Assembly: GCA_964016885.1 (NCBI GenBank)
Contig: OZ024763.1
Location: 14,012,001-14,076,000 of the forward strand
Reading direction: 5' to 3'
From: Eledone cirrhosa
Lineage: Eukaryota
DNA: 64,000 bases
The notes under the pieces are model-generated. The model made no database searches. It was not told the origin of the DNA and saw only the letters and a program-made list of their open reading frames with translations. A program made the translations under genes and the position numbers. Positions 6,226 to 29,468 of the stretch are shown here, piece after piece. Position 1 is the first letter of the stretch, and each line of letters opens with the position of its first letter.

Positions 6226-7250
6226 CTGACTGGAGGATCAGTGAAGCTACTGGGGTCTTTACTATATACCTGACTGGAGGATCAGTGAAGCTACTGGGGT
6301 CTTTACTATATACCAGACTAAAGGAGGATCAGTGAAGCTACTGGGGTCTTTACTATATACCAGACTAAAGGAGGATCAGTGAAGCTACTGGGGTCTTTAC
6401 TATATACCAGACTAAAGGAGGATCAGTGAAGCTACTGGGGTCTTTACTATATACCAGACTAAAGGAGGATCAGTGAAGCTACTGGGGTCTTTACTATATA
6501 CCTGACTGGAGGAGGATCAGTGAAGCTACTGGGGTCTTTACTATATACCAGACTAAAGGAGGATCAGTGAAGCTACTGGGGTCTTTACTATATACCAGAC
6601 TAAAGGAGGATCAGTGAAGCTACTGGGGTCTTTACTATATACCTGACTGGAGGAGGATCAGTTAAGCTACTGGGGTCTTTACTATATACCTGACTGGAAG
6701 AGGATCAGTTAAGCTACTGGGGTCTTTACTATATACCAGACTGGAGGAGGATCAGTGAAGCTACTGGGGTCTTTACTATATACCTGACTGGAGGAGGATC
6801 AGTTAAGCTACTGGGGTCTTTACTATATACCAGACTGGAGGAGGATCAGTGAAGCTACTGGGGTCTTTACTATATACCTGACTGGAGGAGGATCAGTGAA
6901 GCTACTGGGGTCTTTACTATATACCAGACTAAAGGAGGATCAGTGAAGCTACTGGGGTCTTTACTATATACCTGACTAAAGGAGGATCAGTGAAGCTACT
7001 GGGGTCTTTACTATATACCTGACTGGAGGAGGATCAGTGAAGCTACTGGGGTCTTTACTATATACCTGACTAAAGGAGGATCAGTGAAGCTACTGGGGTC
7101 TTTACTATATACCTGACTGGAGGAGGATCAGTGAAGCTACTGGGGTCTTTACTATATACCTGACTGGAGGAGGATCAGTGAAGCTACTGGGGTCTTTACC
7201 AGATACCTGAATACAGGAGGATCAGCGAAACGTGGGTCTTTACTTACCTG
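6226..7250. repeat. 47-bp minisatellite, ~21 copies, abutting a MYO18A donor
   Basis: Unit ctgactggaggaggatcagtgaagctactggggtctttactatatac. Confidence 0.95.
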
Positions 7251-7375
7251 ATTCCTCAGTTGTCGTATCGTAGCTTTAGAGTTCTCCGTACTCTGTTGTT
7301 TCTGAATCACAGTCTCAGCATCTCGGAGGAGGGCCTTTGTACGACGAAGGTCTTTCTTCAGCTTCCTCTCGTTAT
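7248..7375 (-). CDS. MYO18A: Myosin XVIII tail exon ((D)NERKLKKDLRRTKALLRDAETVIQKQQSTENSKATIRQLRNQ)
   Basis: cacag acceptor (phase 1), gtaagt donor, 128 nt; resembles MYO18A EKRLRKDLKRTKALLADAQ...IAQLKNQ. Confidence 0.93.
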
Positions 7376-7707
7376 CTGTGAACACAAACATAACATACAT
7401 CTCAGTGAGGAATACAAACAAAGGGATGGTGGCCCTTCCTTGGACAGAGAGGGTCATTGTAGTATCTCAGGGGATCAATCTAGTGCTAGCATATCCTGTC
7501 ATAAATGAGTTGTAATGTCACTAGTGTCAAGTTGTATTGGTTTTTACCTTTCTTTTGGACAACATCATATATAGTGAATATATAGTGTGTATATAGAGTG
7601 TATATATTGTATGTATATATAGTATGTATATATATTGTATATATAGTGCATATATAATGTATATATAGTATGTAGATATAGTGTATATATAATATATATA
7701 TCAACAG

Positions 7708-7945
7708 TCAATCGACAAGATCCCAGACCTGGGGTGGAGCTCCTCAAATTGGGCCGAGGAAACTATTTCCATTGGTCTTTCCAGTTGCTAATACTATCTG
7801 TCAGTAGCAAATTCAGACAGAAGGAGCTACGTGAAATAAAGTATCTTGCTCAAGGATATAACCCAGCGCCCAGTCTAGGAATCGAAATCACAACCTCACA
7901 ATTGTGAATCCAATTCACTAACCACTCAGCCACACGCATTCACCA
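7708..7945 (-). mobile_element. tRNA-derived CORE-like SINE (family B); another copy at 17758-18013
   Basis: A box tggctgagtgg, B-box-like ttcgattcc, and ccttgagcaagatactt core on the minus strand. Confidence 0.75.
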
Positions 7946-8494
7946 TATATATATGTAATGTGGCTGTGTAGGTAACACAGTAAAAACCTCCCAGTTCCAC
8001 ACTGTAAATGTGGTTGGTGTTAGGAAGGGCATCCAGCCATAGAAAACCTGCCAGACGGTCCTATACAAGCGAAATACGGTCACCCGACCAGCCTTGCCTC
8101 AACTGGGACAACTCCCGTCTAACCCATGCTAGCATGGAAAATGGACGTTAAACAATGATGATGATGATATATAGTGTATATATAATATATCCTTGCAAGC
8201 AGGGAAAAGCGGATGTAAAATGATGATGATGATGTGTATATAGTTTGTATATATATATATATAGTGCATATATAGTATATATATGAGTTGTGACATCACT
8301 GGTGTCAAACAGTATCAGCCATTGCCTTTCCCTTGGACATCCGTGTCTCAAATAGAAGGGAGTCTGGCAGGCATGAGGTGGCTACTGGTCTTGTCCGGGC
8401 TTATGTCATGGAGCAGAACTGTCTAAATACAAACCCATGATCAGTAATGACCAAAGGGGGCTCTCCTATTAATTGAGGGGCAATTAAGGGTTTC

Positions 8495-8760
8495 TGTGTG
8501 GCCAAGTGGTAAAGGTATTGGACTTATGGTCATAATATCATGGGCTCGATTCCTGAACTGGTTTGCGTGTTGTGTTCTTGAGCAAAACACTTCATTTCAC
8601 GTTGCTCCAGTAGACTCAGCTGAAAATGAGTACCAGTAATAGCTGGAGGTTTAACCCTGTCTCAGAGGTAGTCTTGTATTCTCAGTTGCTTAACACCATG
8701 GAAACCACGATAAGCACCAGCCTGATGAGCCCCCAGGCTCGAGATAGACTTTAGACTTAG
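8495..8760 (+). mobile_element. tRNA-derived SINE (family C)
   Basis: tggccaagtgg...ggctcgattcc...cttgagcaaaacactt; homologous to 37486-37778. Confidence 0.75.
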
Positions 8761-10492
8761 TGTGAACTACTCACTGAAGAAGGGGCTTTAATTCTTACAC
8801 CTGAGCCTTCCTAAAACTTGAGGGGTAACATAGAACAGGTTTGTGTGTGAGTTATTCACTGAAAAAGGATTTCAATAGTTACAACTGGGCCCTCCTATAA
8901 ATTGAAGGGCAACATAGACAGGGTTTCTGTGTGAGCTATTCACTGAAAAAGGGTTTCAATAGTTACAACTGGGCCCTCCTATAAAATGAAGGGCAACATA
9001 GACAGGGTTTCTGTGTGAGCTATTCACTGAAAAAGGGTTTCAATAGTTACAACTGGGCCCTCCTATAAATTGAAGGGCAACATAGACAGGGTTTCTGTGT
9101 GAGCTATTCACTGAAAAAGGGTTTCAATAGTTACAACTGGGCCCTCCTATAAAATGAAGGGCAACATAGACAGGGTTTCTGTGTGAGCTATTCACTGAAA
9201 AAGGGTTTCAATAGTTACAACTGGGCCCTCCTATAAATTGAAGGGCAACATAGACAGGGTTTCTGTGTGAGCTATTCACTGAGGAAGGGGTTTCAATAGT
9301 TACAACTGGGCCCTCCTATAAATTGAAGGGCAACATAGACAGGGTTTCTGTGTGAGCTATTCACCGAGGAGGGGGTTTAAATAGTTACAACTGGGCCCTC
9401 CTATAAAATAAAGTGCAACATAGACAGGGTTTCTGTGTGAGCAATTCACTGAGGAAGGGGTTTCAATAGTTACAACTGGGCCCTCCTATAAAATGAAGTG
9501 CAACATAGACAGGGTTTCTGTGTGAGCTATTCACTGAAAAAGGGTTTCAATAGTTACAACTGGGCCCTCCTATAAAATGAAGGGCAACATAGACAGGGTT
9601 TCTGTGTGAGCTATTCACTGAAAAAGGGTTTCAATAGTTACAACTGGGCCCTCCTATAAATTGAAGGGCAACATAGACAGGGTTTCTGTGTGAGATATTC
9701 ACTGAAAAAGGGTTTCAATAGTTACAACTGGGCCCTCCTATAAAATGAAGGGCAACATAGACAGGGTTTCTGTGTGAGCTATTCACTGAGGAAGGGGTTT
9801 CAATAGTTACAACTGGGCCCTCCTATAAATTGAAGGGCAACATAGACAGGGTTTCTGTGTGAGCTATTCACTGAGGAAGGGGTTTCAATAGTTACAACTG
9901 GGCCCTCCTATAAAATGAAGTGCAACATAGACAGGGTTTCTGTGTGAGCTATTCACTGAAAAAGGGTTTCAATAGTTACAACTGGGCCCTCCTATAAAAT
10001 GAAGTGCAACATAGACAGGGTTTCTGTGTGAGCTATTCACTGAGGAAGGGGTTTCAATAGTTACAACTGGGCCCTCCTATAAAATGAAGGGCAACATAGA
10101 CAGGGTTTCTGTGTGAGCTATTCACTGAGGAAGGGGTTTCAATAGTTACAACTGGGCCCTCCTATAAAATGAAGTGCAACATAGACAGGGTTTCTGTGTG
10201 AGCTATTCACTGAAAAAGGGTTTCAATAGTTACAACTGGGCCCTCCTATAAAATGAAGTGCAACATAGACAGGGTTTCTGTGTGAGCTATTCACTGAGGA
10301 AGGGGTTTCAATAGTTACAACTGGGCCCTCCTATAAAATGAAGGGCAACATAGACAGGGTTTCTGTGTGAGCTATTCACTGAGGAAGGGGTTTCAATAGT
10401 TACAACTGGGCCCTCCTATAAATTGAAGGGCAACATAGACAGGATTTCTGTGTGAGCTATTCACTGAGGAAGGGGTTTCAATACTTACCACT
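8760..10492. repeat. 84/85-bp tandem array, ~20 copies, abutting a MYO18A donor
   Basis: Unit ctgaaaaagggtttcaatagttacaactgggccctcctataaaatgaagggcaacatagacagggtttctgtgtgagctattca. Confidence 0.95.
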
Positions 10493-10612
10493 GTTGTTCT
10501 GTACCCCTTGGGTCATCATCTCCTGCACCTGTCGTTCCAGTTCTCGTTTGTCCTGCATCAACAATCTCTTGTCATCATATTCCTCTTCCAACTGACTCTC
10601 CAACTGTTTCAG
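10489..10612 (-). CDS. MYO18A: Myosin XVIII tail exon (LKQLESQLEEEYDDKRLLMQDKRELERQVQEMMTQGVQNNS)
   Basis: tgtag acceptor, gtaagt donor, 124 nt; phase-1 end fits the next exon; resembles MYO18A [26 protein letters not shown]. Confidence 0.92.
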
Positions 10613-10623
10613 CTACAACAAAC

Positions 10624-10823
10624 NNNNNNNNNNNNNNNNNNNNNNNNNNNNNNNNNNNNNNNNNNNNNNNNNNNNNNNNNNNNNNNNNNNNNNNNNNNNN
10701 NNNNNNNNNNNNNNNNNNNNNNNNNNNNNNNNNNNNNNNNNNNNNNNNNNNNNNNNNNNNNNNNNNNNNNNNNNNNNNNNNNNNNNNNNNNNNNNNNNNN
10801 NNNNNNNNNNNNNNNNNNNNNNN
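10624..10823. other. Assembly gap (200 N)
   Basis: Run of exactly 200 N, typical of a fixed-size scaffolding gap. Confidence 0.99.
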
Positions 10824-10936
10824 TTCATGTCAGACAATCTTTCCATGAAACAGTAGTGGCACATATGTGTTATTTAAGTGCATTTCGATAAATAAAAAGA
10901 GCAATTTATTAAAGTAGATGAATATTGAATATTTAA

Positions 10937-13900
10937 CCCTTTAGCATTCACATATACTATTATATTTTCATGGTAAAGGCTTTATATATATACTATTATA
11001 TTAAAGGCTTTATATATATACTATTATATTTTCATGGTAAAGGCTTTATATATATACTATTATATTAAAGGCTTTATCATCATCATCATCATCATCATCA
11101 TCAGGTTTAGCGTCCGTGTTCCACGCTTGCATGGGTTTGGACGGGGGTTTTCCCACTTGAGGCAAGAGTGGTTGTCTTGCTCGCATAGGACTGTCTGGCG
11201 GGTTTTCTACAGTTGGATGCCCTTCCTAACACCAACCACATTTACAGTGTGGGGCTGGGAGGTTTTTACCGTGTTGCCTACACGGCCACATTACAGCGTG
11301 GACTGTCTGGCGGGTTTTCTACAGCTGGATGCCCTTCCTAACACCAACCACATTTACAGTGTGGGGCCGGGAGGTTTTTACCGTGTTGCCTAGCCTACAC
11401 GGCCACATTTACAGCATGGACTGTGTGTTTTTGTCGTGACACCTACACGATCTCATTTGTTTCGGCCTGGATGTATACTATATATATACTATTATATTTT
11501 CATGGTAAAGGCTTTATATATATACTATTATATTAAAGGCTTTATATATATACTATTATATTTTCATGGTAAAGGCTCATATATATACTATTATATTAAA
11601 GGCTTTATATATATACTATTATATTTTCATGGTAAAGGCTTTATATATATACTATTATATTAAAGGCTTTATATATATATATACTATTGTATTTTCATGG
11701 TAAAGGCTTTGTATATATACTATTATATTAAAGGCTTTATATATATATACTATTATATTTTCATGGTAAAGGCTTTATATATATACTATTATATTAAAGG
11801 CTTTATATATATACTATTATATTTGGTAAAGGCTTTATATATATACTATTATATTAAAGGCTTTATATATATACTATTATATTAAAGGCTTGATATATAT
11901 ATACTATTATATTTTCATGGTAAAGGCTTTATATATATACTATTATATTAAAGGCTTTATATATATACTATTATATTAAAGGCTTTATATATATACTATT
12001 ATATTTCATGGTAAAGGCTTTATATATATATACTATTATATTTTCATGGTAAAGGCTTTATATATATACTATTATATTAAAGACTTTATATATATACTAT
12101 TATATTTTCATGGTAAAGGCTTTATATATATACTATTATATTAAAGGCTTTATATATATACTATTATATTAAAGGCTTGATATATATATACTATTATATT
12201 TTCATGGTAAAGGCTTTATATATATACTATTATATTAAAGGCTTTATATATATATACTATTGTATTTTCATGGTAAAGGCTTTATATATATACTATTATA
12301 TTAAAGGCTTTATATATATACTATTATATTAAAGGCTTTATATATATACTATTATATTAAAGGCTTTATATATATACTATTATATTAAAGGCTTTATATA
12401 TATACTATTATATTAAAGGCTTTATATATATACTATTATATTAAAGGCTTTATATATATACTATTATATTAAAGGCTTTATATATATACTATTATATTAA
12501 AGGCTTTATATATATACTATTATATTAAAGGCTTTATATATATACTATTATATTAAAGGCTTTATATATATACTATTATATTAAAGGCTTTATATATATA
12601 CTATTATATTAAAGGCTTTATATATATACTATTATATTTTCATGGTAAAGGCTTTATATATATACTATTATATTAAAGGCTTTATATATATACTATTATA
12701 TTTTCATGGTAAAGGCTTTATATATATACTATTATATTAAAGGCTTTATATATATACTATTATATTAAAGGCTTTATATATATACTATTATATTAAAGGC
12801 TTTATATATATACTATTATATTAAAGGCTTTATATATATACTATTATATTAAAGGCTTTATATATATACTATTATATTAAAGGCTTTATATATATACTAT
12901 TGTATTTTCATGGTAAAGGCTTTATATATATACTATTATATTAAAGGCTTTATATATATACTATTATATTAAAGGCTTTATATATATACTATTATATTAA
13001 AGGCTTGATATATATATACTATTATATTTTCATGGTAAAGGCTTTATATATATACTATTATATTAAAGGCTTTATATATATATACTATTGTATTTTCATG
13101 GTAAAGGCTTTATATATATACTATTATATTAAAGGCTTTATATATATACTATTATATTAAAGGCTTTATATATATACTATTATATTAAAGGCTTTATATA
13201 TATACTATTATATTAAAGGCTTTATATATATACTATTATATTAAAGGCTTTATATATATACTATTATATTAAAGGCTTTATATATATACTATTATATTAA
13301 AGGCTTTATATATATACTATTATATTAAAGGCTTTATATATATACTATTATATTAAAGGCTTTATATATATACTATTATATTAAAGGCTTTATATATATA
13401 CTATTATATTAAAGGCTTTATATATATACTATTATATTAAAGGCTTTATATATATACTATTATATTTTCATGGTAAAGGCTTTATATATATACTATTATA
13501 TTAAAGGCTTTATATATATACTATTATATTTTCATGGTAAAGGCTTTATATATATACTATTATATTAAAGGCTTTATATATATACTATTATATTAAAGGC
13601 TTTATATATATACTATTATATTAAAGGCTTTATATATATACTATTATATTAAAGGCTTTATATATATACTATTATATTAAAGGCTTTATATATATACTAT
13701 TATATTAAAGGCTTTATATATATACTATTATATTAAAGGCTTTATATATATACTATTGTATTTTCATGGTAAAGGCTTTATATATATACTATTATATTAA
13801 AGGCTTTATATATATACTATTGTATTTTCATGGTAAAGGCTTTATATATATACTATTATATTAAAGGCTTTATATATATACTATTATATTAAAGGCTTTA

Positions 13901-16865
13901 TATATATACTATTATATTAAAGGCTTTATATATATACTATTATATTAAAGGCTTTATATATATACTATTATATTAAAGGCTTTATATATATACTATTATA
14001 TTAAAGGCTTTATATATATACTATTATATTAAAGGCTTTATATATATACTATTATATTAAAGGCTTTATATATATACTATTATATTTTCATGGTAAAGGC
14101 TTTATATATATACTATTATATTAAAGGCTTTATATATATACTATTATATTTTCATGGTAAAGGCTTTATATATATACTATTATATTAAAGGCTTTATATA
14201 TATACTATTATATTTTCATGGTAAAGGCTTCATATATATACTATTATATTAAAGGCTTTATATATATACTATTATATTTTCATGGTAAAGGCTTTATATA
14301 TATACTATTATATTAAAGGCTTTATATATATATATACTATTGTATTTTCATGGTAAAGGCTTTGTATATATACTATTATATTAAAGGCTTTATATATATA
14401 CTATTATATTTTCATGGTAAAGGCTTTATATATATACTATTATATTAAAGACTTTATATATATACTATTATATTTTCATGGTAAAAGCTTTATATATATA
14501 CTATTATATTAAAGGCTTTATATATATACTATTATATTAAAGGCTTGATATATATATACTATTATATTTTCATGGTAAAGGCTTTATATATATACTATTA
14601 TATTAAAGGCTTTATATATATACTATTATATTAAAGGCTTTATATATATACTATTATATTTTCATGGTAAAGGCTTTATATATATATACTATTATATTTT
14701 CATGGTAAAGGCTTTATATATATACTATTATATTAAAGGCTTTATATATATACTATTATATTAAAGGCTTTATATATATACTATTATATTAAAGGCTTTA
14801 TATATATACTATTATATTAAAGGCTTTATATATATACTATTATATTAAAGGCTTTATATATATACTATTATATTAAAGGCTTTATATATATACTATTATA
14901 TTAAAGGCTTTATATATATACTATTATATTAAAGGCTTTATATATATACTATTATATTAAAGGCTTTATATATATACTATTATATTAAAGGCTTTATATA
15001 TATACTATTATATTAAAGGCTTTATATATATACTATTATATTAAAGGCTTTATATATATACTATTATATTAAAGGCTTTATATATATACTATTATATTTT
15101 CATGGTAAAGGCTTTATATATATACTATTATATTAAAGGCTTTATATATATACTATTATATTTTCATGGTAAAGGCTTTATATATATACTATTATATTAA
15201 AGGCTTTATATATATACTATTATATTAAAGGCTTTATATATATACTATTATATTAAAGGCTTTATATATATACTATTATATTAAAGGCTTTATATATATA
15301 CTATTATATTAAAGGCTTTATATATATACTATTATATTAAAGGCTTTATATATATACTATTATATTAAAGGCTTTATATATATACTATTGTATTTTCATG
15401 GTAAAGGCTTTATATATATACTATTATATTAAAGGCTTTATATATATACTATTGTATTTTCATGGTAAAGGCTTTATATATATACTATTATATTAAAGGC
15501 TTTATATATATACTATTATATTAAAGGCTTTATATATATACTATTATATTAAAGGCTTTATATATATACTATTATATTAAAGGCTTTATATATATACTAT
15601 TATATTAAAGGCTTTATATATATACTATTATATTAAAGGCTTTATATATATACTATTATATTAAAGGCTTTATATATATACTATTATATTAAAGGCTTTA
15701 TATATATACTATTATATTAAAGGCTTTATATATATACTATTATATTTTCATGGTAAAGGCTTTATATATATACTATTATATTAAAGGCTTTATATATATA
15801 CTATTATATTTTCATGGTAAAGGCTTTATATATATACTATTATATTAAAGGCTTTATATATATACTATTATATTTTCATGGTAAAGGCTTCATATATATA
15901 CTATTATATTAAAGGCTTTATATATATACTATTATATTTTCATGGTAAAGGCTTTATATATATACTATTATATTAAAGGCTTTATATATATATATACTAT
16001 TGTATTTTCATGGTAAAGGCTTTGTATATATACTATTATATTAAAGGCTTTATATATATACTATTATATTTTCATGGTAAAGGCTTTATATATATACTAT
16101 TATATTAAAGACTTTATATATATACTATTATATTTTCATGGTAAAGGCTTTATATATATACTATTATATTAAAGGCTTTATATATATACTATTATATTAA
16201 AGGCTTGATATATATATACTATTATATTTTCATGGTAAAGGCTTTATATATATACTATTATATTAAAGGCTTTATATATATACTATTATATTAAAGGCTT
16301 TATATATATACTATTATATTTTCATGGTAAAGGCTTTATATATATATACTATTATATTTTCATGGTAAAGGCTTTATATATATACTATTATATTAAAGAC
16401 TTTATATATATACTATTATATTTTCATGGTAAAGGCTTTATATATATACTATTATATTAAAGGCTTTATATATATACTATTATATTAAAGGCTTGATATA
16501 TATATACTATTATATTTTCATGGTAAAGGCTTTATATATATATACTATTATATTTTCATGGTAAAGGCTTTATATATATACTATTATATTAAAGACTTTA
16601 TATATATACTATTATATTTTCATGGTAAAGGCTTTATATATATACTATTATATTAAAGGCTTTATATATATATACTATTGTATTTTCATGGTAAAGGCTT
16701 TACCTCGCATAATTATCTCACATAATATTGAATCTGTGAGATTTTGCTATTATTTGTTTTGAGAACAAAATCTTAACATCAGTATGAGTGGCTGAATACA
16801 GCTGGTTTCAACAGAAAGAGGGGAGAGAATTCTGGCCGGATACGGCCGGTTTAACTGCTAAAGGG
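10937..16865. mobile_element. piggyBac-type MITE expanded to 5.9 kb by an internal 28/36-bp satellite; SINE fragment inserted at ~11077-11473
   Basis: TTAA-CCCTTTAGCA ... TGCTAAAGGG-TTAA termini; units ttaaaggctttatatatatactattata and ttttcatggtaaaggctttatatatatactattata. Confidence 0.85.
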
Positions 16866-17134
16866 TTAAACAAATCTTTTAAAATTAAAGTCCAATATTC
16901 AATTATTTCTTTGCGGCCTGGTAGCAAATGACCCAGGGATTGGTCCGCGGCCCAGTGGTTTGGGGGCCTCTGCTTTACAACATTCTTATCTGACTTATGT
17001 GTGTGTTTCTACAAATGAAATAAAGTGTAACGGTTAACTTAGTTATATTTAGTATATACTAGTTATAGAAGTAGATATATACACTAGTTATATCTAGTGT
17101 ATACTAGTTATAGAAGTAGATATATATACTAGTT

Positions 17135-17480: not shown

Positions 17481-18014
17481 GGTTGGGGTGTATATTTGAT
17501 TAAGTAGATATATACACTAGTTATATATAGTATATACTGTGCAATGTCAATGTGCATGAATGACCAATCATAGAGGAGTTGAGAGAGAAACTGGGTATAA
17601 GAGGGATAAGTTGTAGTGTGTAGGAGAGGAGACTGCGGTGGTATGGACATGTGATGCGCATGGAGGATGTCCGCTGGGTAAAGAAGTGCCAAGAAATCCC
17701 AGTAGAAGGAAGACGCAGTAGAGGAAGACCACGAATAGCATACTATATACATATAGCAATCGATCAACAAGATCCCAGACCTCATTCACTTAACAAGTGT
17801 GGTGGAGCTTGTCAAATTGGACCGAGGAAACAATGTTTCCATTAGTCTTTCCAATTGCTAATACTCTCTACCAGCCGCAAATCCGGGCAGAAGGAGTAAC
17901 GTGAAATAAAATGTCTTGCTCAAGGGCTTAATGCATCACCTAGTCAGGGAATCAAACTCGCAACCTCACGATTGTGAATCCAATTCTCTAACCACTCAGC
18001 CACATGCCTTCACT

Positions 18015-18182
18015 ATAGGGTTGGACGCCATGCTTTCTAGCATAGTTACGTCCCTTTACAGTCTGAGTTCAAATCCCGCCGAGGTTAACTTTGCCTTTCA
18101 TCCTTACAGGGTCGATAAAATAAAGTACCAGTAATGTACTGGGTAATTGCTGGCCTTGTGCCTAAAGTAGAAACAATTATTT
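18015..18182 (+). mobile_element. Meta-domain-like SINE; other copies at ~21925-22030, 26340-26423 plus 27596-27710, 52620-52742, 61555-61735, 61820-62242, 63070-63250
   Basis: gagttcaaatcc B box followed by gccgaggttaactttgcctttcatccttacggggtcgataaaataaagtaccag. Confidence 0.75.
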
Positions 18183-18283
18183 TTATATTGACTTTTCCAT
18201 TCTGGCATAGCCTGGACAGGACTTTTTGACTCTGTGTTTTATAGCTGGATGCCTTTTTTAATGCCAACCATTTTACAGACTGT

Positions 18284-18314
<31 letters not shown>

Positions 18315-18585
18315 CCTTACGTCTGCTTTTCCCTGCTTGCAAGGGTGTGACAGGTCCTGTTCAGCACAGCATCTCTCCATTCGTCATGGTCCTTTGTACT
18401 GGGTGCATTTTATTTGTGGCACCAGCACGAGGAAACTTGTCTTGTCCTTGATGTGACTCCGAAATTACAATTAGCTCCATTTGATAATTAGATACCTGTA
18501 TATTAAAGGGATTAAATTAAATGAAATATAATTAACTTTTTAATTACTAATTAAAGACATCATTTCTTAAATATTTATTTCTCAG

Positions 18586-18651
18586 GATGTTGATTTAAGT
18601 CACTGCAGAATCAATAAAATTGAACAGATGGAGAAACTTACCAGTGTTACG
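18586..18651 (+). CDS. PPP1R7: PPP1R7/Sds22 exon (DVDLSHCRINKIEQMEKLTSVT); first exon visible, upstream exons missing
   Basis: ttctcag/gtaaac, 66 nt; resembles human DVDLNHYRIGKIEGFEVLKKVK. Confidence 0.9.
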
Positions 18652-18660
18652 GTAAACATT

Positions 18661-18825
18661 TACCATTTCATTACCATATTTTAATTAACATATACTAAAT
18701 TAACCATTTCATTACCATATTTTAATTAACATATACTAAATTAACCATTTCATTACCATATTTTAATAGAAATATACTGTACTAACCATTTCATTACCAT
18801 ATTTTAATTGAAATATACTGTACTT
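18661..18825. repeat. ~41-bp tandem repeat starting about 10 nt after a PPP1R7 donor
   Basis: accatttcattaccatattttaattaacatatactaaatta x4; further interrupted copies to ~19625. Confidence 0.8.
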
Positions 18826-19085
18826 GAATATATATAAAAATGAAAAAACTAATCGCTAGAACAGCTGTTAACACAGCTAAATGCTGTCAAAGATATCGAT
18901 GGGCAAAATTGCCTCAGAAAACAAGGACCAGAGACAATCCATAAGGTGTGTGCTGGGTGCATTTATCATGTCTTTGACAGCATTTAGCTGTTTTAATGGC
19001 TGTTCTAGCACTGAGTTTTCTCATTTTTATATGTATTCAAATACACTCTCGCTTCCTCTCAATCAGAGACAACATTGTTTTATAC
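18826..19085. repeat. Inverted-repeat element; related copy at ~59865-60083
   Basis: gctagaacagctgttaacacagctaaatgctgtcaaaga ... tctttgacagcatttagctgttttaatggctgttctagc. Confidence 0.7.
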
Positions 19086-19192
19086 TATACATCAAATATA
19101 CTGTACTTGAATTAATAAACCATTTCCTAATGAAATACACTGTATTTTACTAATTAGCCCTTTCATTACCATATTCCTAATGAAATACACTG

Positions 19193-19556
19193 TCATTTCA
19201 TCATCATTTCGTTTTAAGTCCGCTTTTTCCCTGCTTGCAAGGGTGGGACGGGAACTGATTCTGGCTTGATTTCTACAGCTGGATGCCCTTCCTAACACCA
19301 ACCTCATTTACAGTGAGTGCTGGGTGCTTTTTTGCCGTGGCACCTCCACGACCACTTTGCAGTGGAATGATAGGGACCCCAGTCCCTATCATTTCATTTC
19401 TACAGCTGAGTAAACTGGAGCAATGTGAAATAAAGTGTCTTGCTCAAGGAAACAACACATCACCTGGTCTGAGAATTGAACTCACAACCTTTCGATTGCC
19501 AGGCCAATGCTCTAACCACTAAGCCATGGGCCTCCATACTAAGCCATGTGCCTCCA
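19193..19556 (-). mobile_element. tRNA-derived SINE family A, full length, RTE-type tail
   Basis: A box tggcttagtgg, B box gagttcaattc, ccttgagcaagacactt core, (GAT)n tail. Confidence 0.88.
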
Positions 19557-20356
19557 TAAAACTGTATTTTACTAATTAGCCCTTTCATTACCATATTCCT
19601 TATGAAATATACAATATTTAAATTAATAAAACTCTGTATGTCTGCATGCTTGTATCTCTGTATGTGTATGTGAATGCATGCCTGCATGCTTGTATCTCTG
19701 TATGTGAATGCATGCCTGTAAACATGTGTATGTTTGTCTGAGTCTGTGTGTATGTGTCTATGTATACATGCGTGTGTATGTCTGTGTATGTGTGTCTATA
19801 TATACATGTGTGTGTGTGTGTCTGAATGTATCTCTGTATGTGTGTGTGTGTGAATGTATGACTCTGTGTGTGTATCTGTCTGTCTGAATGTATGTCTGTG
19901 TGCGTGTGTCTATGTACACATGTGTATGTGTGTGACTATGTATATGACTGTGTGTGTGTGTGTGTGTCTGAATCTATGTCTGTGTGCGTGTGTCTATGTA
20001 TACATGTGAATGCGTGTGACTGTATGTATATGTCTGTGTGTGTGTGTCTATCTGAATGTATGTCTGTATGTGTGTGTCTATGTATACATGTGAATGTGTG
20101 TGACTGTATGTATATGTCTGTGTGTATGTGTGTGTGTCTATCTGAATGTATGTCTGTATGCGTGTGTCTATGTACACATGTGTATGCGTGTGACTGTATG
20201 TCTATGACTGTGTGTGTGTGTCTGTCTGAATGTATGTCTGTGTGCGTGTGTCTATGTACACGTGTATGTGTGTGACTATGTATATGTCTGTGTGTGTGTG
20301 TATATGTGACTTTCACTATAACATACAACCTGAACTCATGTTTCCCTGTATTGTAG

Positions 20357-20487
20357 AATCTGTGTCTGCGACAGAATTTGATCAAATCCATTGAAGGGTT
20401 GTCAACATTGACCCAGTTAAATGTATTGGATCTCTATGACAACCAGATCACCTCAATAGAGAACTTAACAGAGCTGATCGATCTAAC
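20357..20487 (+). CDS. PPP1R7: PPP1R7 LRR exon (NLCLRQNLIKSIEGLSTLTQLNVLDLYDNQITSIENLTELIDL)
   Basis: tgtag/gtaagt, 131 nt, phase 0/2; SDS22-type LRRs LCLRQNLIK and LDLYDNQI. Confidence 0.95.
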
Positions 20488-20527
20488 GTAAGTCATTTGT
20501 TAATAGCCCCACCACCCCACCCCCATT

Positions 20528-21060
20528 GAGTGACAGCTTCTGATGTTGTGTCGTAGTGAGGGTTGATCTCAGTCTGTGAGTGACAGCTTCTGATGTTGTG
20601 TGGTAGTGAGGGTTGATCTCAGTCTGTGAGTGACAGCTTCTGATGTTGTGTGGTAGTGAGGGTTGATCTCAGTCTGTGAGTGACAGCTTCTGATGTTGTG
20701 TGGTAGTGAGGGTTGATCTCAGTCTGTGAGTGACAGCTTCTGATGTTGTGTGGTAGTGAGGGTTGATCTCAGTCTGTGAGTGACAGCTTCTGATGTTGTG
20801 TGGTAGTGAGGGTTGATCTCAGTCTGTGAGTGACAGCTTCTGATGTTGTGTGGTAGTGAGGGTTGATTGCAGTCTGTGAGTGACAGCTTCTGATGTTGTG
20901 TGGTAGTGAGGGTTGGTCTCAGTCTGTGAGTGACAGCTTCTGATGTTGTGTGGTAGTGAGGGTTGATTGCAGTCTGTGAGTGACAGCTTCTGATGTTGTT
21001 TGGTAGTGAGGGTTGATTGCAGTCTGTGAGTGACAGCTTCTAATGTTGTGTCGTAGTGAG
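20528..21060. repeat. 50-bp minisatellite, ~10.5 copies
   Basis: gagtgacagcttctgatgttgtgtggtagtgagggttgatctcagtctgt; starts 40 nt after a PPP1R7 donor. Confidence 0.95.
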
Positions 21061-21072
21061 GATATTGTAGAG

Positions 21073-21495
21073 CAGGCATGTCAAACATGGGGCCCGCATG
21101 CCCCAATTTTGTATGTAGAAAATACACAGGAGTAATCAAGAGAAAGAGTACCAATGATATAAACCTTTTCTAGTCACAGGAAGGATCCATAGAAGTGGTT
21201 GATAGCTTTATAACAAAAAGAGAGTTAAATGCCTATTAATCCCTTCTTGTAATTACAGGTTAAAACATTTATAGATCTTAGGCATGTCAAAAATGTGGAC
21301 CGCAGGCTGCATACGACCCTTTAGAAGCACACCAGTGGCTCACACAAAGGTTTTTACAGCGCGAGTTATGTTTTATTTTTGTAATATAAAATAAAAAAAA
21401 TTAGTTGTAATATGTGCAATTAGTTGTGTGTGGCCCTCAGACAATACTTATGTGACCCATGTGGTCCTTGGGAGGCCCTCAGTTTGACATACCTG
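21073..21495. mobile_element. hAT-like MITE
   Basis: TIRs CAGGCATGTCAAAC and GTTTGACATACCTG; no clear target-site duplication. Confidence 0.55.
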
Positions 21496-22104
21496 TAGTA
21501 ATGAGGGTAGTGGTCCTGTAGTGACTGGAGACCCTGTACTGTAATGAGGGTAGAGGACCTGTAGTGAGGGTTCATCTCAGTCTGGTGTCATATTGTAGAG
21601 CACGTGTAGTGACTAGAGACCCTGTATTGTAATGAGGGCTTACCTCAGTCTGGTGTTGTGTGGTAGTGAGGGTTGGGGACCTGTAGTGACTAGAGACCCT
21701 CTATTTTAATGAGGGCTTGTGATAGCTTCTGGTGTTGTGTGATAGTGATGGCTTACCTCAGTCTGATGTTGTGTGGTAGTGAGGGTAGAGGACGTGTAGT
21801 GACTAGTGACCCTCTATTTTAATGAAGAACAAAGAACTGGCTAATTTCATTTTTGGTTAACCCTTTCATGACTATTTCCAATGAAATACACTTCATATCA
21901 AATTATCATTATTTGTTAATCCCACCCAGGTTAACTTTGCCTTTCATCCTTACGGGGTCGATAAAATAAAGTACCAGTAATACACTGGGTTTGTTGCTGG
22001 CCTTGTGCCAAAAGTAGAAACAATTATTTGTTATCTGTTATAAGTAAGGAAGTATAACAATGAAATTTATTCAACTAAAGAGAAAATGTAATAATCCATC
22101 CATC

Positions 22105-23435
22105 CATATCCAGTTTTAGTCTTTAGGGTGCTGCGGTTGTCCTGTACTCCGCGGTAGGCAACACCAGGCAATGTCTGACAGCCGCTCTCCATGAATTTCT
22201 GTCCATAGTATCGACATCGGCCAAGCTCCATTTATACAAATCACTCTTCACGCACTCCAACCACGTCTTCCTTGGTCTGCCGCGATGTCTTGTGCCAGGG
22301 ATTACCAAGTGAGTGGTGGAGTTGATGTATGACGTGGCTCGCTGTACATGTCCGTACCAACAGAGACATTGTGTGTGAAGGACAGCAGTTATCTCATCCA
22401 CACCCAGCTTCTGGTAGAGCATGCTTCTTCCTTGGTCTGCCGCGATGTCTTGTGCCAGTGATTGCCAAGTGAGTGGTGGAGTTAATGTATGACGTGGCTC
22501 GCTGTACATGTCCTTACCAACAGAGACGTTGTGTGTGAAGGACAGCAGTTATCTCATCCCTACCCAGCTTCTGGTGGAGCATGCTTCTTCCTTGGTCTGC
22601 CGTGATCTCTAGTGTCAGGGACTGCCAAGTGAGTGATGGAGTTGATGTATGACGTGGCTCGCTGTACATGTCCTTACCAACAGAGACGTTGTGTGTGAAG
22701 GACAGCAGTTATCTCATCCCTACCCAGCTTCTGGTGGAGCATGCTTCTTCCTTGGTCTGCCGCGATCTCTAGTGTCAGGGACTGCCAAGTGAGTGATGGA
22801 GTTGATGTATGACGTGGCTCGCTGTACATGTCCTTACCAACAGAGACGTTGTGTGTGAAGGACAGCAGTGATCTCATCCCCACCCAGCTTCTGGTGGAGC
22901 ATGCTTCTTCCTTGGTCTGCCGCGATCTCTAGTGTCAGGGACTGCCAAGTGAGTGATGGAGTTGATGTATGACGTGGCTCGCTGTACATGTCCTTACCAA
23001 CAGAGACGTTGTGTGTGAAGGACAGCAGTGATCTCATCCCCACCCAGCTTCTGGTGGAGCATGCTTCTTCCTTGGTCTGCCGCGATCTCTAGTGTCAGGG
23101 ACTGCCAAGTGAGTGATGGAGTTGATGTATGACGTGGCTCGCTGTACATGTCCTTACCAACAGAGACGTTGTGTGTGAAGGACAGCAGTGATCTCATCCC
23201 CACCCAGCTTCTGGTGGAGCATGCTTCTTCCTTGGTCTGCCGCGATCTCTAGTGTCAGGGACTGCCAAGTGAGTGATGGAGTTGATGTATGACGTGGCTC
23301 GCTGTACATGTCCTTACCAACAGAGACGTTGTGTGTGAAGGACAGCAGTGATCTCATCCCCACCCAGCTTCTGGTGGAGCATGCTTCTTCCTTGGTCTGC
23401 CGCGATCTCTAGTGCCAGGGATTGCCAAGTGAGTG
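22105..23435 (-). mobile_element. RTE LINE 3' end with 160-bp tandem amplification (~6.5 copies)
   Basis: WYGHVQRA...RGRPRKTWLECVKSDL...DRNSWR; ORF track repeats every 160 nt. Confidence 0.85.
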
Positions 23436-23559
23436 ATAAAAACTGTAGAAAATGAATGACAATAAGGAAACAAAAAAGGAAAAGAAGAAAACAAAAAAAT
23501 TTAAAATAAATCAAACAATGAAAGAAAGAGAGGAGCAACGACTGATTTTTCAATTAATT

Positions 23560-24240
23560 AAGAATTTTGCCGAGTACTGCATGGCTGGAATGAAAATCAG
23601 TGCTGCAAAAACTGAGTCACTCGTCCTCTCAAGGAAGCTTGGAAAGTGCACTCTACATGTGAATGGAGTTCCACTGAAGCAGGTAGAGAAGTTCAAGTAC
23701 CTCGGGGCTGTGTTCACGAGTGATGGAAGGCAGTAGACTGAATTAAGCGCAAGAATTGTAGGAGCTGGTGCAGTAATGTCCCAGCTTCAGCATTCAGTAA
23801 TCAGAAGGGAGGTAGGCATAAAAGCCAAACTCGCTGTCTTCAATTTGGTTTTCATGCCAATGGCATGACTTTACCTATGATCATGAATTTTGGGTAATGA
23901 CCGAAAGAATACGATCACAAATATAAGTGGCCAAAATGGGGTTCCTCCAAAGGGTCTTTGGAGTAATGTTACTCGATAGAGTGCGTAGGCTGAAGATCAG
24001 AGAGTCACTCCAGGTAGAGCTGCTACTTCAAATTGAGAGATCACAGCTCTGATGCTATGGCCATGTAGTTAGAATGTCTCAGGAAAGAATCACTGGACAG
24101 ATTTGTAGCTCGGAGATCAGAGAGTCACTCCAGCTAGAGCTGCTACTTCTTCAAATTGAGAGATCACAGTTGTGATACTATGGACATGTGGTTAGAATGT
24201 CTCAGGAAAGAATCGCTGGACAGATTTTATGGGCGACACC
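23560..24240 (+). mobile_element. Decayed RTE-clade (Expander/Rex3-like) RT C-terminal fragment
   Basis: GMKISAAKTESLVLSRK...LKQVEKFKYLGAVFTSDGRQ, then stops and frameshifts. Confidence 0.85.
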
Positions 24241-24532
24241 AACAGATCATTTGGAGTTGGTTACTTCTGACAGGACCTCCTGGAAGGCGTGCTAGAGGAC
24301 TCTGTCCCCATAACCCTCTCAGAAATATGTGTGCAAAAAAGAAGATAAACAACTTAGATGTCTTTCATCATCATCATCACTGTTTAACATCTACTTTTCC
24401 ACGCTGGCATGGGTTAGACAAGTTATCCTGTTGTGAGCAGTACCAGGTCAGGTGACCATGTTTTGCTCATACAGAACTGATTTTGGCTTTGTTTCTACAA
24501 CTGGATACCTTTCCTAGCGCCATCCTCATTTT

Positions 24533-25100
24533 ATAGTGTGGACTGGATGTTGTTTGTCGTGACACCTACACAACCACTTTACAGTGTGGACAGGGTGCTT
24601 TTTGTCGTGTCACCTACACGACCACTTTATAGTGTGGACTGGGTGCTTTTTGTCGTGTCTCCTACACGACCACTTTACAGTGTGGACTGGGTGCTTTTTG
24701 TTGTGTCACCTACACAACCACTTTACAGTGTGGACTGGGTGCTTTTTGTCGTGTCACCTACACAACCACTTTACAGTGTGGACTGGGTGCTTTTTGTCGT
24801 GTCACCTACATGACCACTTTACAGTGTGGACTGGGTGCTTTTTGTCGTGTCACCTACACAACCACTTTGCAGTGTGGACTGGGTGCTTTTTATCATGACT
24901 GCTACACAACCACTTTACAGTGTGGACTGGGTGCTTTTTGTCGTGTCACCTACACAACCACTTTACAGTGTGGACTCGGTGTTTTTTATCATGACACCTA
25001 CACAACCACTTTACAGTGTGGTCTGGGTGCTTTTTATCATGACACCTACACAACCACTTCACAGTGTGGACTGGGTGCTTTTTGTCGTGTCACCTATACA
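24533..25100. repeat. 48-bp SINE-derived minisatellite, ~11 copies
   Basis: acagtgtggactgggtgctttttgtcgtgtcacctacacaaccacttt. Confidence 0.9.
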
Positions 25101-25361
25101 TGGGAATTTGGGTCTTCTGTATTACTGCATAACACCAGAGATCTCAGTCCTGTGTCATCACCTTTGAGAAGTGCAATTTGGCAAGGTCAGCTTTTATCAC
25201 CTCATACCAATGGAAGACACTACGTATAACTTTCAAATAATTTTTTTAAATAATCAAAAATTTCCAACATAGAGGTTTTTACATGAAATTATGATGGAAC
25301 CAGGGGTAGTTTCAGGTTGTTTTGGTGCCAAAAGTATTAAACTGTTCCTCGTTTATTCCAG

Positions 25362-25524
25362 TCAACTAGATTTCTCTTTTAACCGAATCAAGAAGATAGA
25401 AAATATTTCACATTTGATTAAACTGGTTAAGTTATACTTTGTGAACAACAGAATAACCAACATTGAAAACCTTGATACACTTGTTAACCTGGACATGCTG
25501 GAATTAGGATCAAATAGAATTCGG
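25362..25524 (+). CDS. PPP1R7: PPP1R7 LRR exon (QLDFSFNRIKKIENISHL...MLELGSNRIR)
   Basis: ttccag/gtatgt, 163 nt, phase 2/0; contains MLELGSNRIR. Confidence 0.96.
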
Positions 25525-25536
25525 GTATGTAATCAC

Positions 25537-25586
<50 letters not shown>

Positions 25587-25615
25587 GTGTATATATATAT
25601 ATATATAAATATATC

Positions 25616-26155
25616 ACTAGCAGTGGTACCGGGCGTTGCATGGGATAAGGTATTTTGGAAGGTGGGCCACCAACAGACCTAATCGTGGATAAACTGCATG
25701 CCTGGACAATATGTAAAGAAAATAAACCGAATACTCTGATGGTTGGATAATCTTTAAGATTTTCCTCGATGAAGCAGGAAAAATGCAGGTTTTCACCTAA
25801 TGCAGGCCCTAGGCCATAAAAAAGTTGGATTTTCTTTGCTCACGGTATGAAGAAGAGACTGACTAATACATAGTTACAATTTCAAGGAAATTGGTCTGAC
25901 GTAACGCCTCAAAACACCCCAAAAAAGCTGAAAAAAAAACGCAGTTTTTCAACTAAAGGATAAAAAAGTTGAATTTTCACCTAGGGGATCAAAAAGTTGA
26001 ATTTTTTATGTGCATGACACTCCCTGAAACATAAGTAATACACATGTAAAGTTTTAAAAAAAATTGGTTGGGTACTTCTGGAGTTTTAGGGATTCAAACT
26101 CACAGACACACACACACACACAGACAGACATCCTCAGTTTTATATATATATAGAT
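25616..26155 (+). mobile_element. Helitron/Helentron-like non-autonomous element; partial inverted copy at ~28983-29165
   Basis: 5' ACTAGC..ccgggcgttgcatggg; 3' (CA)/(CAGA) microsatellite then cagttttatatatatagat. Confidence 0.5.
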
Positions 26156-26423
26156 AAATTAACGATTTTATTTATATGCATGTGGGCAGGTGACTCAGTG
26201 CATTACTGGTGCTTTATTTTATCAACCAAGTAAGGATGAAAGGCAGGATTTGTACTCAGACCATAAAGGGGTGTAACTCAATGCTGCAAAGCCCTCTACC
26301 AATACTGCTAAGCGACCGCTCTAATAACTTGGCAGGATTTGAACTAATAATTGTTTCTACTTTTGAAACAAGGCGAGTAATACTCCAGTGCATTACTGGT
26401 ACTTTATTTTATCGACCCCTTAA

Positions 26424-27595
26424 CCCTTTAATGTTCAAACCGGCCAAAACAGGCCAGGATTCTCTACCTCTTTGTGTTGAAACTGGCTGTAACTGGTCAC
26501 TCAAACTGATGTTAAGGTATTTTTCTCAAAATAAATACTTTCAAAATCTCATTGATTCGATATTATATACAATAGTATATATAGAGTAATGTGAATGTTG
26601 TGAGATAATTATGTGAGGTAAAGCCTTTACCATGAAAATACAATAGTATATATATAGAGTAATGTAAATGTTATGTGAGGTAAAGCCTTTACCATGAAAA
26701 TACAATAGTATATATATAGAGTAATGTAAATGTTATGTGAGATATTATGTGAGGTAAAGCCTTTACCATGAAAATACAATAGTATATATAGAGTAATGTG
26801 AATGCTATGTGAGATATTATGTGAGGTAAAGCCTTTACCATGAAAATATAATAGTAAATATAGAGTAATGTAAATGTTATGTGAGATATTATGTGAGGTA
26901 AAGCCTTTACCATGAAAATATAATAGTATATATAGAGTAATGTAAATGTTATGTGAGATGATATGTGAGGTAAAGCCTTTACCATGAAAATATAATAGTA
27001 TATATAGAGTAATGTGAATGCTATGCGAGATATTATGTGAGGTAAAGCCTTTACCATGAAAATATAATAGTATATATAGAGTAATGTAAATGTTATGTGA
27101 GATAATTATGTCAGGTAAAGCCTTTACTATGAAAATATAATAGTATATATAGAGTAATGTAAATGTTATGTGAGGTAAAGCCTTTACCATGAAAATATAA
27201 TAGTATATATAGAGTAATGTAAATGTTATGTGAGATATTATGTGAGGTAAAGCCTTTACCATGAAAATACAATAGTATATATAGAGTAATGTAAATGTTA
27301 TGTGAGATATTATGTGAGGTAAAGCCTTTACCATGAAAATATAATAGTATATATAGAGTAATGTAAATGTTATGTGAGATATTATGTGAGGTAAAGCCTT
27401 TACCATGAAAATATAATAGTATATATAGAGTAATGTAAATGTTATGTGAGATATTATGTGAGGTAAAGCCTTTACCATGAAAATATAATAGTATATATAT
27501 AGAGTAATGTAAATGTTATGTGAGATATTATGTGAGGTAAAGCCTTTACCATGAAAATATAATAGTATATATAGAGTAATGTGAATGCTAAAGGG
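26424..27595. mobile_element. piggyBac-type MITE with internal 72-bp array (~14 copies), inserted into a SINE
   Basis: TTAA on both sides; flanks atcgacccc and ggatgaaaggcaaa rejoin into the Meta-like SINE. Confidence 0.85.
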
Positions 27596-27805
27596 TTAAG
27601 GATGAAAGGCAAATTTAACCTTGGCAGGATTTGAACTCAGAATGTAAAGGAGCATAACTATGCTGCAAAGCATGGTGTCTGATGCCCTACTCATCCTGCC
27701 AATCTGCTACTTTGATTTCAACTAATAACAACATAAAGTATTGTTTCTTTATAAACTGCCAACTTTCTCAAGTTTTAATTTGTAATATATTTTGTTTTCC
27801 TCCAG

Positions 27806-27922
27806 GTGATGGAGAATTTAAACACCCTTATTAACTTGACAGGTTTGTACCTGGGCAAGAATAAAATTGTGAAGATTACAGGTTTAGATAATCTCGTTAA
27901 CCTGAAGTGTCTCAGTTTACAG
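27806..27922 (+). CDS. PPP1R7: PPP1R7 LRR exon (VMENLNTLINLTGLYLGKNKIVKITGLDNLVNLKCLSLQ)
   Basis: ctccag/gtatgt, 117 nt; LYLGKNKI motif. Confidence 0.96.
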
Positions 27923-28160
27923 GTATGTTTTCCCCTATTTCAAATTTTACACATGTGTCACCCCTATTTCATATTTTACAGGTATGTCACCCCTGTTTCA
28001 TATTTTACATGTATGTCACTCCTATTTCATATTTTACAGGTATGTCACCCCTATTTCATATTTTACAGGTATGTCACCCCTATTTCATATTTTACAGGTA
28101 TGTCACCCCTATTTCATATTTTACAGATATGTTACCCCCTATATTTCATATTTTACAGGG
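27915..28160 (+). repeat. 29-bp minisatellite whose unit contains the splice junction TTTACAG|GTATGT
   Basis: ttttacaggtatgtcacccctatttcata x ~8, beginning inside the exon end. Confidence 0.92.
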
Positions 28161-29363: not shown

Positions 29364-29468
29364 AGCAACCGTTTGACTCACATTGAGGGTTTGGACTCCT
29401 TGGTGAACTTAAATGAACTTTACCTGAGTGACAATGGCATTGAAAAAATTGAAGGGCTGTCCAAAAAT
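29364..29468 (+). CDS. PPP1R7: PPP1R7 LRR exon (SNRLTHIEGLDSLVNLNELYLSDNGIEKIEGLSKN)
   Basis: gacag/gtaagt, 105 nt; resembles human SNRLTKIEGLQNLVNLRELYLSHNGIEVIEGLENN. Confidence 0.96.

What the first reader, a model, noticed from the sequence alone, without database searches (positions are those of the whole stretch)
6226..28160. Recurrent pattern: intronic tandem arrays built from the 5' splice site itself
Seen: at 3 of the 11 donors in the window (7247, 10488, 27923; two genes, both strands) the intron begins with a tandem array whose unit overlaps the exon end and reiterates the junction. Several other donors (142, 4279, 18652, 20488) have arrays starting within ~10-40 nt. No acceptor shows a junction-containing array. 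The units (47, 84, 29 bp) are unrelated to each other and to transposons I recognise. Inference: either a donor-anchored repeat-generating process (slippage or R-loop repair), or selection for arrays of U1-binding decoys or recursive sites in long introns. I do not know this pattern to be described, but I cannot check the literature here.
Basis: partly seen in the sequence, partly recalled or inferred. Interest (0 to 1): 0.75.

Follow-up and report, generated by a model that had tools for sequence, protein, structure and literature searches.

The report
Splice-donor minisatellites, not enriched genome-wide
Three short DNA repeats in two genes of a large, probably octopus-type genome start right at an exon end and repeat its splice signal down the intron, but a sample of other genes shows no excess of such repeats at splice donors, so they are likely harmless copying slips of a kind already known from human and lancelet genes.

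Summary
Three of 11 donors (7247, 10488, 27923) open with locus-specific minisatellites (47, 84/85, 29 bp; 8-22 units) overlapping the exon by 4-7 nt; no acceptor does (0 of 11). This kind is known: human F7, CBS, 6-16, LMNB2, PDGF and lancelet 'mirages'; the scan noted it before in this genome and others.

The interpretation mostly fails. In a sample from 32 contigs, 6 of 667 donors and 1 of 672 acceptors are straddled (Fisher p 0.07). Intron array density predicts about 9 and 12, so donors are not enriched while acceptors are depleted (P about 1e-4). Of 49 donor copies, 45 are weaker than the real donor. The introns are only 1.4-3.1 kb. One spliced contig uses the first donor at 27923.

Best reading: microhomology-seeded slippage duplications, tolerated at donors and selected against at acceptors. 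This repeat-rich window is likely an upper-tail cluster (P 0.0006-0.015 at local density, among about 46,800 windows). One lead remains: array edges are 2-3 times denser in the first 100 nt of introns at both ends (1.7 times outside dispersed repeats).

The parts
6226..7251 (-). Array A: 47-bp minisatellite with 22 junction copies behind donor 7247; overlaps the exon by 4 nt (TCAG). Junction unit is 41 nt and 74% identical to the modal unit. Copies score 4.7-6.9 bits (last copy -3.1) against 14.1 for the real donor
7248..7375 (-). Coding exon of a coiled-coil myosin-tail gene (MYO18A-like; name recalled, not from a call); donor CAG|GTAAGT at 7247
   Evidence: Pfam Myosin_tail_1 E 5.9e-4, below cut-off, on the neighbouring exon 4280-4393
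8760..10493 (-). Array B: 84/85-bp minisatellite with 20 junction copies behind donor 10488; overlaps the exon by 5 nt. Of the copies, 19 read GTT|GTAACT (2.0 bits) and one scores 3.3, against 11.4 for the real donor
10489..10614 (-). Coding exon of the same myosin-tail gene, beside a 200-N assembly gap; phase-1 donor GTG|GTAAGT at 10488
   Evidence: open frame, 41 aa
27806..27922 (+). LRR exon of PPP1R7/Sds22; donor CAG|GTATGT at 27923, joined to 29364 in a spliced contig
   Evidence: PDB best hit of the last exon is PPP1R7, E 7.4e-9
27916..28159 (+). Array C: 29-bp minisatellite with 7 junction copies; overlaps the exon by 7 nt (TTTACAG). Four copies keep the full donor and also score as strong acceptors (AG|GT); the nearest copy (+30) is dead. 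Ends in TTTACAGG at the head of a high-copy dispersed repeat
29364..29468 (+). Next PPP1R7 exon, the splice partner of donor 27923
18658..18819 (+). 41-bp x 4 array abutting donor 18652 without spanning it
20527..21061 (+). 50-bp x 10.7 array starting 39 nt after donor 20488
1..122 (-). 20-bp array starting about 20 nt after donor 142; continues left of the window

Best explanation
These are three independent minisatellites that include an exon end and its splice donor, likely born by replication slippage between short matching sequences and likely tolerated because the spliceosome would keep using the first donor. Shown: arrays, junction overlap, locus-specific units, weakened copies, first-donor use at 27923 in one contig, no excess of straddled donors, and a shortage of straddled acceptors. 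Inferred step 1: a tandem duplication forms between a few bases at the junction and a similar motif one unit downstream. In array C the 8-mer TTTACAGG stands both at the junction and at the far end; in A the far end reads TCAG-TTATAT against TCAG-GTAAGT at the junction. Inferred step 2: the duplication expands and homogenises like any minisatellite, while the constrained first unit lags behind (74-96% identity to the modal unit). Inferred step 3: extra donors downstream of a real donor cost little, so such arrays survive at about the background rate, whereas extra acceptors upstream of a real one are mostly removed by selection. Three in one window is likely an upper-tail cluster in a stretch that is 39% minisatellite.
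For: Arrays and overlaps. Units unique among 516 held loci; single-copy DNA depth for array C. Record 25 of run X4 covers 25362-25523, 27805-27918 and 29360-29468 with continuous record positions (719 to 720), so no repeat bases are included. Genome sample: 6 of 667 donors straddled (0.9%, CI 0.3-1.9%) against 8.8 expected; 1 of 672 acceptors against 11.7 expected, P 1e-4 (7e-4 if 2 are counted). Of 49 window copies, 45 are weaker than the real donor. The window is 39% minisatellite, against 1-17% near genes on the 27 chromosome-size contigs sampled. P(3 or more of 11) is 0.0006-0.015 at local density, with about 46,800 windows in the genome. Literature: first-donor scanning shown by mutagenesis in human F7 (PMC1557585); mirages do not disturb splicing (PMC3087553); microhomology-mediated duplications are mostly neutral (PMC13167724); transposons within 20 bp of exons are biased to the donor side in mammals (PMC3088655, abstract).
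Against: The direct donor/acceptor contrast is not significant (p 0.069; 0.18 if a doubtful acceptor case is kept). For arrays of 4 or more copies the sample has 1 donor and 1 acceptor case, so three large donor arrays in 11 donors is far above the sample rate (1 of 667). It needs both the local repeat density and the pick-the-best-window argument. Array edges are 2-3 times denser in the first 100 intron bases than 200-700 nt in (p about 0.001 each side), still 1.65-1.69 times outside dispersed repeats (p 0.047 and 0.025); plain neutrality does not predict this. First-donor use rests on one contig from one run of unrecorded type, and contigs drop rare forms; arrays A and B have no RNA evidence here. 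In 3 of the 6 sampled donor arrays the nearest copy is as strong as or stronger than the real donor. Splice sites in the sample are computed, not annotated; two methods agreed at 492 of 635 donors. The neutral expectation assumes junction DNA duplicates as readily as intron DNA.
Confidence: 0.75

Rival explanations
1. Splice-junction DNA is a mutational hot spot for tandem duplication (for example through polymerase pausing, R-loops or nucleosome edges), so arrays are born preferentially at exon borders; selection then trims those that straddle, mostly at acceptors.
For: Array edges are 2.0-2.7 times denser at 0-100 nt than at 200-700 nt in introns of at least 800 nt, at donors (28 vs 63) and acceptors (31 vs 77), stronger on small chromosomes; 1.65-1.69 times after masking dispersed repeats. 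Three large arrays in 11 donors against 1 in 667 in the sample.
Against: The excess is the same at donors and acceptors, so it is not donor-anchored. Part of it disappears when transposon-like DNA is masked (dispersed repeats cover 2% at 0-20 nt and about 32% beyond 200 nt). It could also come from older, insertion-free DNA near exons, or from deletions that bring arrays up against constrained signals. Straddled donors themselves are not in excess.
Confidence: 0.17
2. The arrays are kept by selection as U1-binding decoys (protection from early polyadenylation or tuning of splicing) or as recursive splice sites.
For: Four copies in array C are both strong donors (10.9 bits) and strong acceptors (11.4), an AG|GT layout like recursive sites; 11 to 12 copies in A score in the lower range of real donors. 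A sampled ALDH array keeps 17 of 18 copies at full strength.
Against: 45 of 49 window copies are weaker than the real donor; 19 of 20 in B have lost the -1 and +5 matches. Introns are 1.4-3.1 kb. Units are unrelated and locus-specific; only 0.9% of sampled donors have one.
Confidence: 0.05
3. The arrays are assembly artefacts or satellites carried in by transposons.
For: The window has an N gap 130 nt from donor 10488 and many dispersed repeats.
Against: Units differ among themselves in ordered patterns (9 types in 22 units, 11 in 20, 5 in 7). Short-read contigs match both ends of array C with 0-1 differences (these runs may be the assembly's own sample). Units hit 0 of 516 other loci.
Confidence: 0.03

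Closest known systems
Human F7 intron-7 37-bp VNTR, with 6-16 (IFI6), CBS IVS13, LMNB2 and PDGF intron 4 (Borensztajn 2006, PMC1557585; seen: abstract, introduction, first part of the text and matching passages)
   Same: First unit spans the exon/intron border with a short exon overlap (4 bp in F7; 4-7 here); similar unit sizes (37-100 bp) and copy numbers (5-25); first donor used (shown here for array C only).
   Different: F7 copies are identical to the real donor; here 45 of 49 are weaker. Length polymorphism and use of proximal copies (seen for 6-16 and CBS) were not tested here. Three cases lie within 22 kb.
Amphioxus 'mirage' minisatellites: Adh3, globins BflGb6 and BflGb9, troponin C, PGBD5 (PMC3087553 and PMC3902484; seen: matching passages; the original Adh paper PMC117041 is not held and was not seen)
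   Same: Tandem repeats spanning exon-intron borders in a marine invertebrate, several per gene or region, 10-160 bp units, homogenised interior with divergent border units, normal splicing reported; both borders can be duplicated (one acceptor case in the sample here, L346).
   Different: Different phylum. Those papers give cases; in the passages seen there is no count against a genomic background. Here the count shows no donor excess and an acceptor shortage.
Microhomology-mediated tandem duplication (Wei 2026, PMC13167724; seen: matching passages; it cites Haber and Louis 1998, not seen)
   Same: Short direct repeats at both ends of the unit (8 nt in array C); mostly neutral, depleted from coding DNA.
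   Different: The words 'splice' and 'intron' occur 0 times in that paper; the origin step here is inferred from sequence only.
Transposon underrepresentation zones near exons (Zhang 2011, PMC3088655; seen: abstract and outline)
   Same: Foreign sequence is tolerated closer to donors than to acceptors; dispersed repeats are also scarce near exons here.
   Different: Concerns insertions in mammals, not local tandem duplications; array edges here are denser, not sparser, near exons.

Membership tests
Exon/intron-junction minisatellite (F7-type VNTR, amphioxus mirage) | Tandem array whose terminal unit spans an authentic exon-intron border | tested here: met
   Edges at -4, -5 and -7 nt; exons have open frames, Pfam/PDB support and, for 27923, a spliced contig
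Exon/intron-junction minisatellite (F7-type VNTR, amphioxus mirage) | Splice signal reiterated in the intron | tested here: met
   49 junction copies; 4 equal to the real donor, 45 weaker or dead
Exon/intron-junction minisatellite (F7-type VNTR, amphioxus mirage) | Unit born at the locus, not a dispersed repeat | tested here: met
   0 hits in 516 held loci (1.995 Mb, 0.07% of the genome) against 195 and 132 for controls; single-copy depth for array C. No whole-genome search of the units was obtained
Exon/intron-junction minisatellite (F7-type VNTR, amphioxus mirage) | Normal mRNA made from the authentic (first) donor | tested here: inconclusive
   Met for array C in one contig of one run of unrecorded type; no RNA evidence for A and B; rare forms are invisible in contigs
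Exon/intron-junction minisatellite (F7-type VNTR, amphioxus mirage) | Copy number varies between alleles or cells | not testable with these tools
   All holders listed come from one study, and contigs do not span the arrays
Recursive splice (ratchet) sites | AG|GT juxtaposition with a pyrimidine tract | tested here: met
   4 copies in array C score 11.4 as acceptor and 10.9 as donor; weaker in A; absent in B
Recursive splice (ratchet) sites | Located in very long introns (definition recalled) | tested here: not met
   Introns are 2,854, 3,113 and 1,441 nt
Recursive splice (ratchet) sites | Recursive junction reads or lariats in nascent RNA | not testable with these tools
   No raw RNA reads listed
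   6 observed vs 8.8 (deep intron) or 27 (near-junction) expected in 667 donors

The most novel reading that the evidence does not exclude
Exon borders are hot spots of tandem duplication in this genome: array edges are two to three times denser in the first 100 intron bases at both splice sites, and selection then removes about nine in ten acceptor-straddling arrays while leaving donor-straddling ones. At the sampled 0.9% this would mean on the order of a thousand natural pseudo-donor arrays per genome, a ready-made test bed for how the spliceosome picks the first of many donors and for intron gain by junction duplication.
Probability: 0.2. Interest if true: 0.55.

Novelty: new member of a known kind. 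Interest (0 to 1): 0.24.

Why it matters
As three more cases of a known repeat type it matters little. The useful part is the count: it turns the impression 'donors attract junction repeats' into 'donors tolerate them, acceptors do not', which fits first-donor selection and could be confirmed cheaply in any annotated repeat-rich genome. If the pile-up of array edges at both exon borders is real and mutational, it would link splicing architecture to local duplication rate.

Tried and rejected
No RNA holder was listed on record for the PPP1R7 exon; run X4 was used only because one of its contigs joins three exons. No read evidence was obtained for arrays A and B. 400 kb of neighbouring C24 DNA was fetched as a local control but proved gene-poor: 4 further convincing exons, all of the myosin-tail gene. 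TRF edges alone miss array A (+18 instead of -4), so a gapped extension was added; it recovered all three window cases. Two of three acceptor-side calls were dropped before counting: L076 (a repeat inside coding sequence with a false acceptor) and L226 (a predicted pseudo-exon inside an intronic array); the p values with one kept are given. The register of arrays A and C, and of the PK case, was wrong and was redone for A-C. One homologue search gave a single unnamed 90-aa protein; the Atlas held neither query and PDB gave nothing for the coiled coil, so MYO18A is a recalled name. Three family searches gave coordinates only; 46 of their hits were typed in and part of them fetched. Paper searches for a genome-wide count or a cephalopod report found none: (1, 1, 3 and 2 papers listed, none on the point apart from PMC3087553); the library lacks most subscription journals, and no supplements were read. 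Rejected: U1 decoy selection, recursive splicing in long introns, transposon-borne satellites, assembly artefact.
Full report
Setting. It holds the 3' part of a minus-strand coiled-coil gene (weak Myosin_tail_1 hit; MYO18A-like by recall) and a plus-strand LRR gene whose last exon best matches PPP1R7/Sds22. An exon model trained on other genes recovered 11 of the 12 exons I had read by eye; the twelfth lies beside an N gap. That gives 11 donors.

Observation. Their exon-side edges lie 4, 5 and 7 nt inside the exon. None of 11 testable acceptors is straddled. The units hit none of 516 held loci, while two control repeats hit 195 and 132. DNA-run depth over array C is 0-27, against thousands or more beside it. 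The arrays are real and locus-born.

Anatomy. Array A has 22 junction copies scoring 4.7-6.9 bits (the last -3.1) against 14.1 for the real donor. Array B has 20 copies at 2.0-3.3 against 11.4, with the -1 and +5 positions changed in 19. Array C has 7 copies: 4 equal the real donor (10.9) and also score as strong acceptors, and the nearest is dead. In all, 45 of 49 copies are weaker. The junction unit is 74%, 96% and 83% identical to the modal unit, and interior units come in a few types in ordered runs, as in ordinary minisatellite turnover. Array C begins TTTACAG|G at the exon end and ends TTTACAGG at the head of a high-copy repeat; array A ends TCAG-TTATAT against TCAG-GTAAGT at the junction. 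I infer that the short exon overlap is the seed homology of the first slippage, not a copied piece of exon. The introns are 2,854, 3,113 and 1,441 nt.

Splicing. One contig of run X4 covers 25362-25523, 27805-27918 and 29360-29468 with continuous record positions. ACAG stands on both sides of the joint, so it equals 27922|29364: the first donor, with no repeat bases. The run's type is not on record and contigs hide rare forms. Arrays A and B have no RNA evidence.

Genome test. I located exons with 15 Pfam families, fetched flanks, and called splice sites with matrices trained on the data. This gave 455 donors and 460 acceptors from family hits, plus 212 each from predicted exons in the same loci, in 265 regions of 150 kb on 32 contigs; the window was not in the sample. 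Six of 667 donors are straddled (overlaps 10-41 nt; all six exons have an open frame fitting the family). Three acceptor calls appeared; two were dropped as false exon borders and one is real, a 73-bp x 6.4 array in a dynein heavy chain gene. Fisher's two-sided p is 0.069 (0.18 with two acceptors). From the density of array edges 200-700 nt into introns, 8.8 straddled donors and 11.7 acceptors are expected; from the density at 20-100 nt, 27 and 22. Donors are therefore at or below background (P of 6 or fewer 0.23) and acceptors are short (P 1e-4; 7e-4 with two). Five of the six donor cases are on contigs other than the eight largest chromosomes (5 of 393 vs 1 of 274). For arrays of 4 or more copies the count is 1 and 1.

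Is 3 of 11 chance? At the sample rate, P is 1e-4, so not by that rate alone. But the window is 39% minisatellite against 1-17% near genes on the chromosome-size contigs. At local density P(3 or more of 11) is 0.0006-0.015, or 0.007-0.15 with the near-junction excess, and the genome has about 46,800 windows for a scan to pick from. Four neighbouring donors of the same gene are not straddled. An upper-tail cluster is enough, although a local hot spot is not excluded.

A result against simple neutrality. In introns of at least 800 nt, array edges are 2.2 times (donors, 28 vs 63) and 2.0 times (acceptors, 31 vs 77) denser at 0-100 nt than at 200-700 nt, p about 0.001 each; for arrays of 3 or more copies 2.7 times. 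Dispersed repeats rise from 2% to about 32% over the same distance; counting unique DNA only, the ratio is 1.65 and 1.69 (p 0.047, 0.025). Older insertion-free DNA near exons, deletions that stop at constrained signals, or a higher duplication rate could each cause it; I could not tell them apart.

Mechanism. Most likely (0.75): slippage between short matches creates a duplication that includes the donor; it expands like any minisatellite; the first donor keeps being used, so the array is nearly neutral; the mirror event at an acceptor is usually selected against. The first and last steps are inferred. Rivals: junction hot spot (0.17), decoy or recursive function (0.05), artefact (0.03).

Known kinds. 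Borensztajn 2006 (PMC1557585; abstract, introduction and passages seen) describes the F7 37-bp VNTR, whose first unit holds the last 4 bp of exon 7, lists 6-16, CBS, LMNB2 and PDGF, and shows by mutagenesis that the most upstream donor is chosen. Ebner 2010 (PMC3087553, passages) and the PGBD5 paper (PMC3902484, passage) describe lancelet 'mirages' at both borders that do not disturb splicing. Wei 2026 (PMC13167724, passages) finds microhomology duplications mostly neutral. Zhang 2011 (PMC3088655, abstract) reports the same donor-side tolerance for transposons. Four searches found no genome-wide count and no cephalopod report. Earlier scan notes list 41 findings with these words in at least 22 genomes and, in this genome, cases in GTF3C4, SHOC1 and an acceptor case in RBM45; they gave me the 'mirage' lead, and I did not check their loci.

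Verdict. A real feature and a new member of a known kind. The claimed donor-specific process or function is not supported; the asymmetry is an acceptor shortage. Interest 0.24.

Noticed in passing
L346 (G000:C19, acceptor at 13650399, +): Acceptor-side array in a dynein heavy chain gene: a 73-bp unit (25 nt of intron plus 48 nt of exon) x 6.4, with intact TTTACCAG|G copies upstream of the real acceptor.
   Followed up: partly
L155 (G000:C18, donor at 34850503, -): ALDH gene: an 82-bp unit with 41 nt of exon end, at least 18 copies, 17 of 18 with a full-strength donor.
   Followed up: partly
window 27923-28336: Reading on from the PPP1R7 exon into array C gives 137 codons without a stop; the intact donor copy at 28040 is in frame and would add 39 residues to an LRR. 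No use seen.
   Followed up: partly
window 22266-23437: A 160-bp x 7.3 intronic array whose unit carries a strong donor-like motif (CAA|GTGAGT) and that the exon model reads as a pseudo-exon end; it is not at a real exon.
   Followed up: no
window 10624-10824 and flanks: The minus-strand gene stops at a 200-N gap; no upstream exons were predicted to the right in the window or the next 200 kb, and the first PPP1R7 exon(s) were not found. A scaffolding break or nesting in a very long intron is possible.
   Followed up: partly
G000, many contigs: Many near-identical intronless UCH (deubiquitinase-like) matches in open frames of up to about 2,230 aa on different chromosomes, suggesting a mobile element that carries this domain.
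   Followed up: no
window 24530-25100, 28158-28306, 29883-30555, 32646-33603: Several arrays look like tandem amplifications of a 46-48-bp segment of one high-copy dispersed repeat; the first hits 195 of 516 held loci.
   Followed up: partly
G000 sample, 27 chromosome-size contigs: Minisatellite coverage near genes is mostly 1-7% on the largest chromosomes and 7-17% on most small ones.
   Followed up: partly
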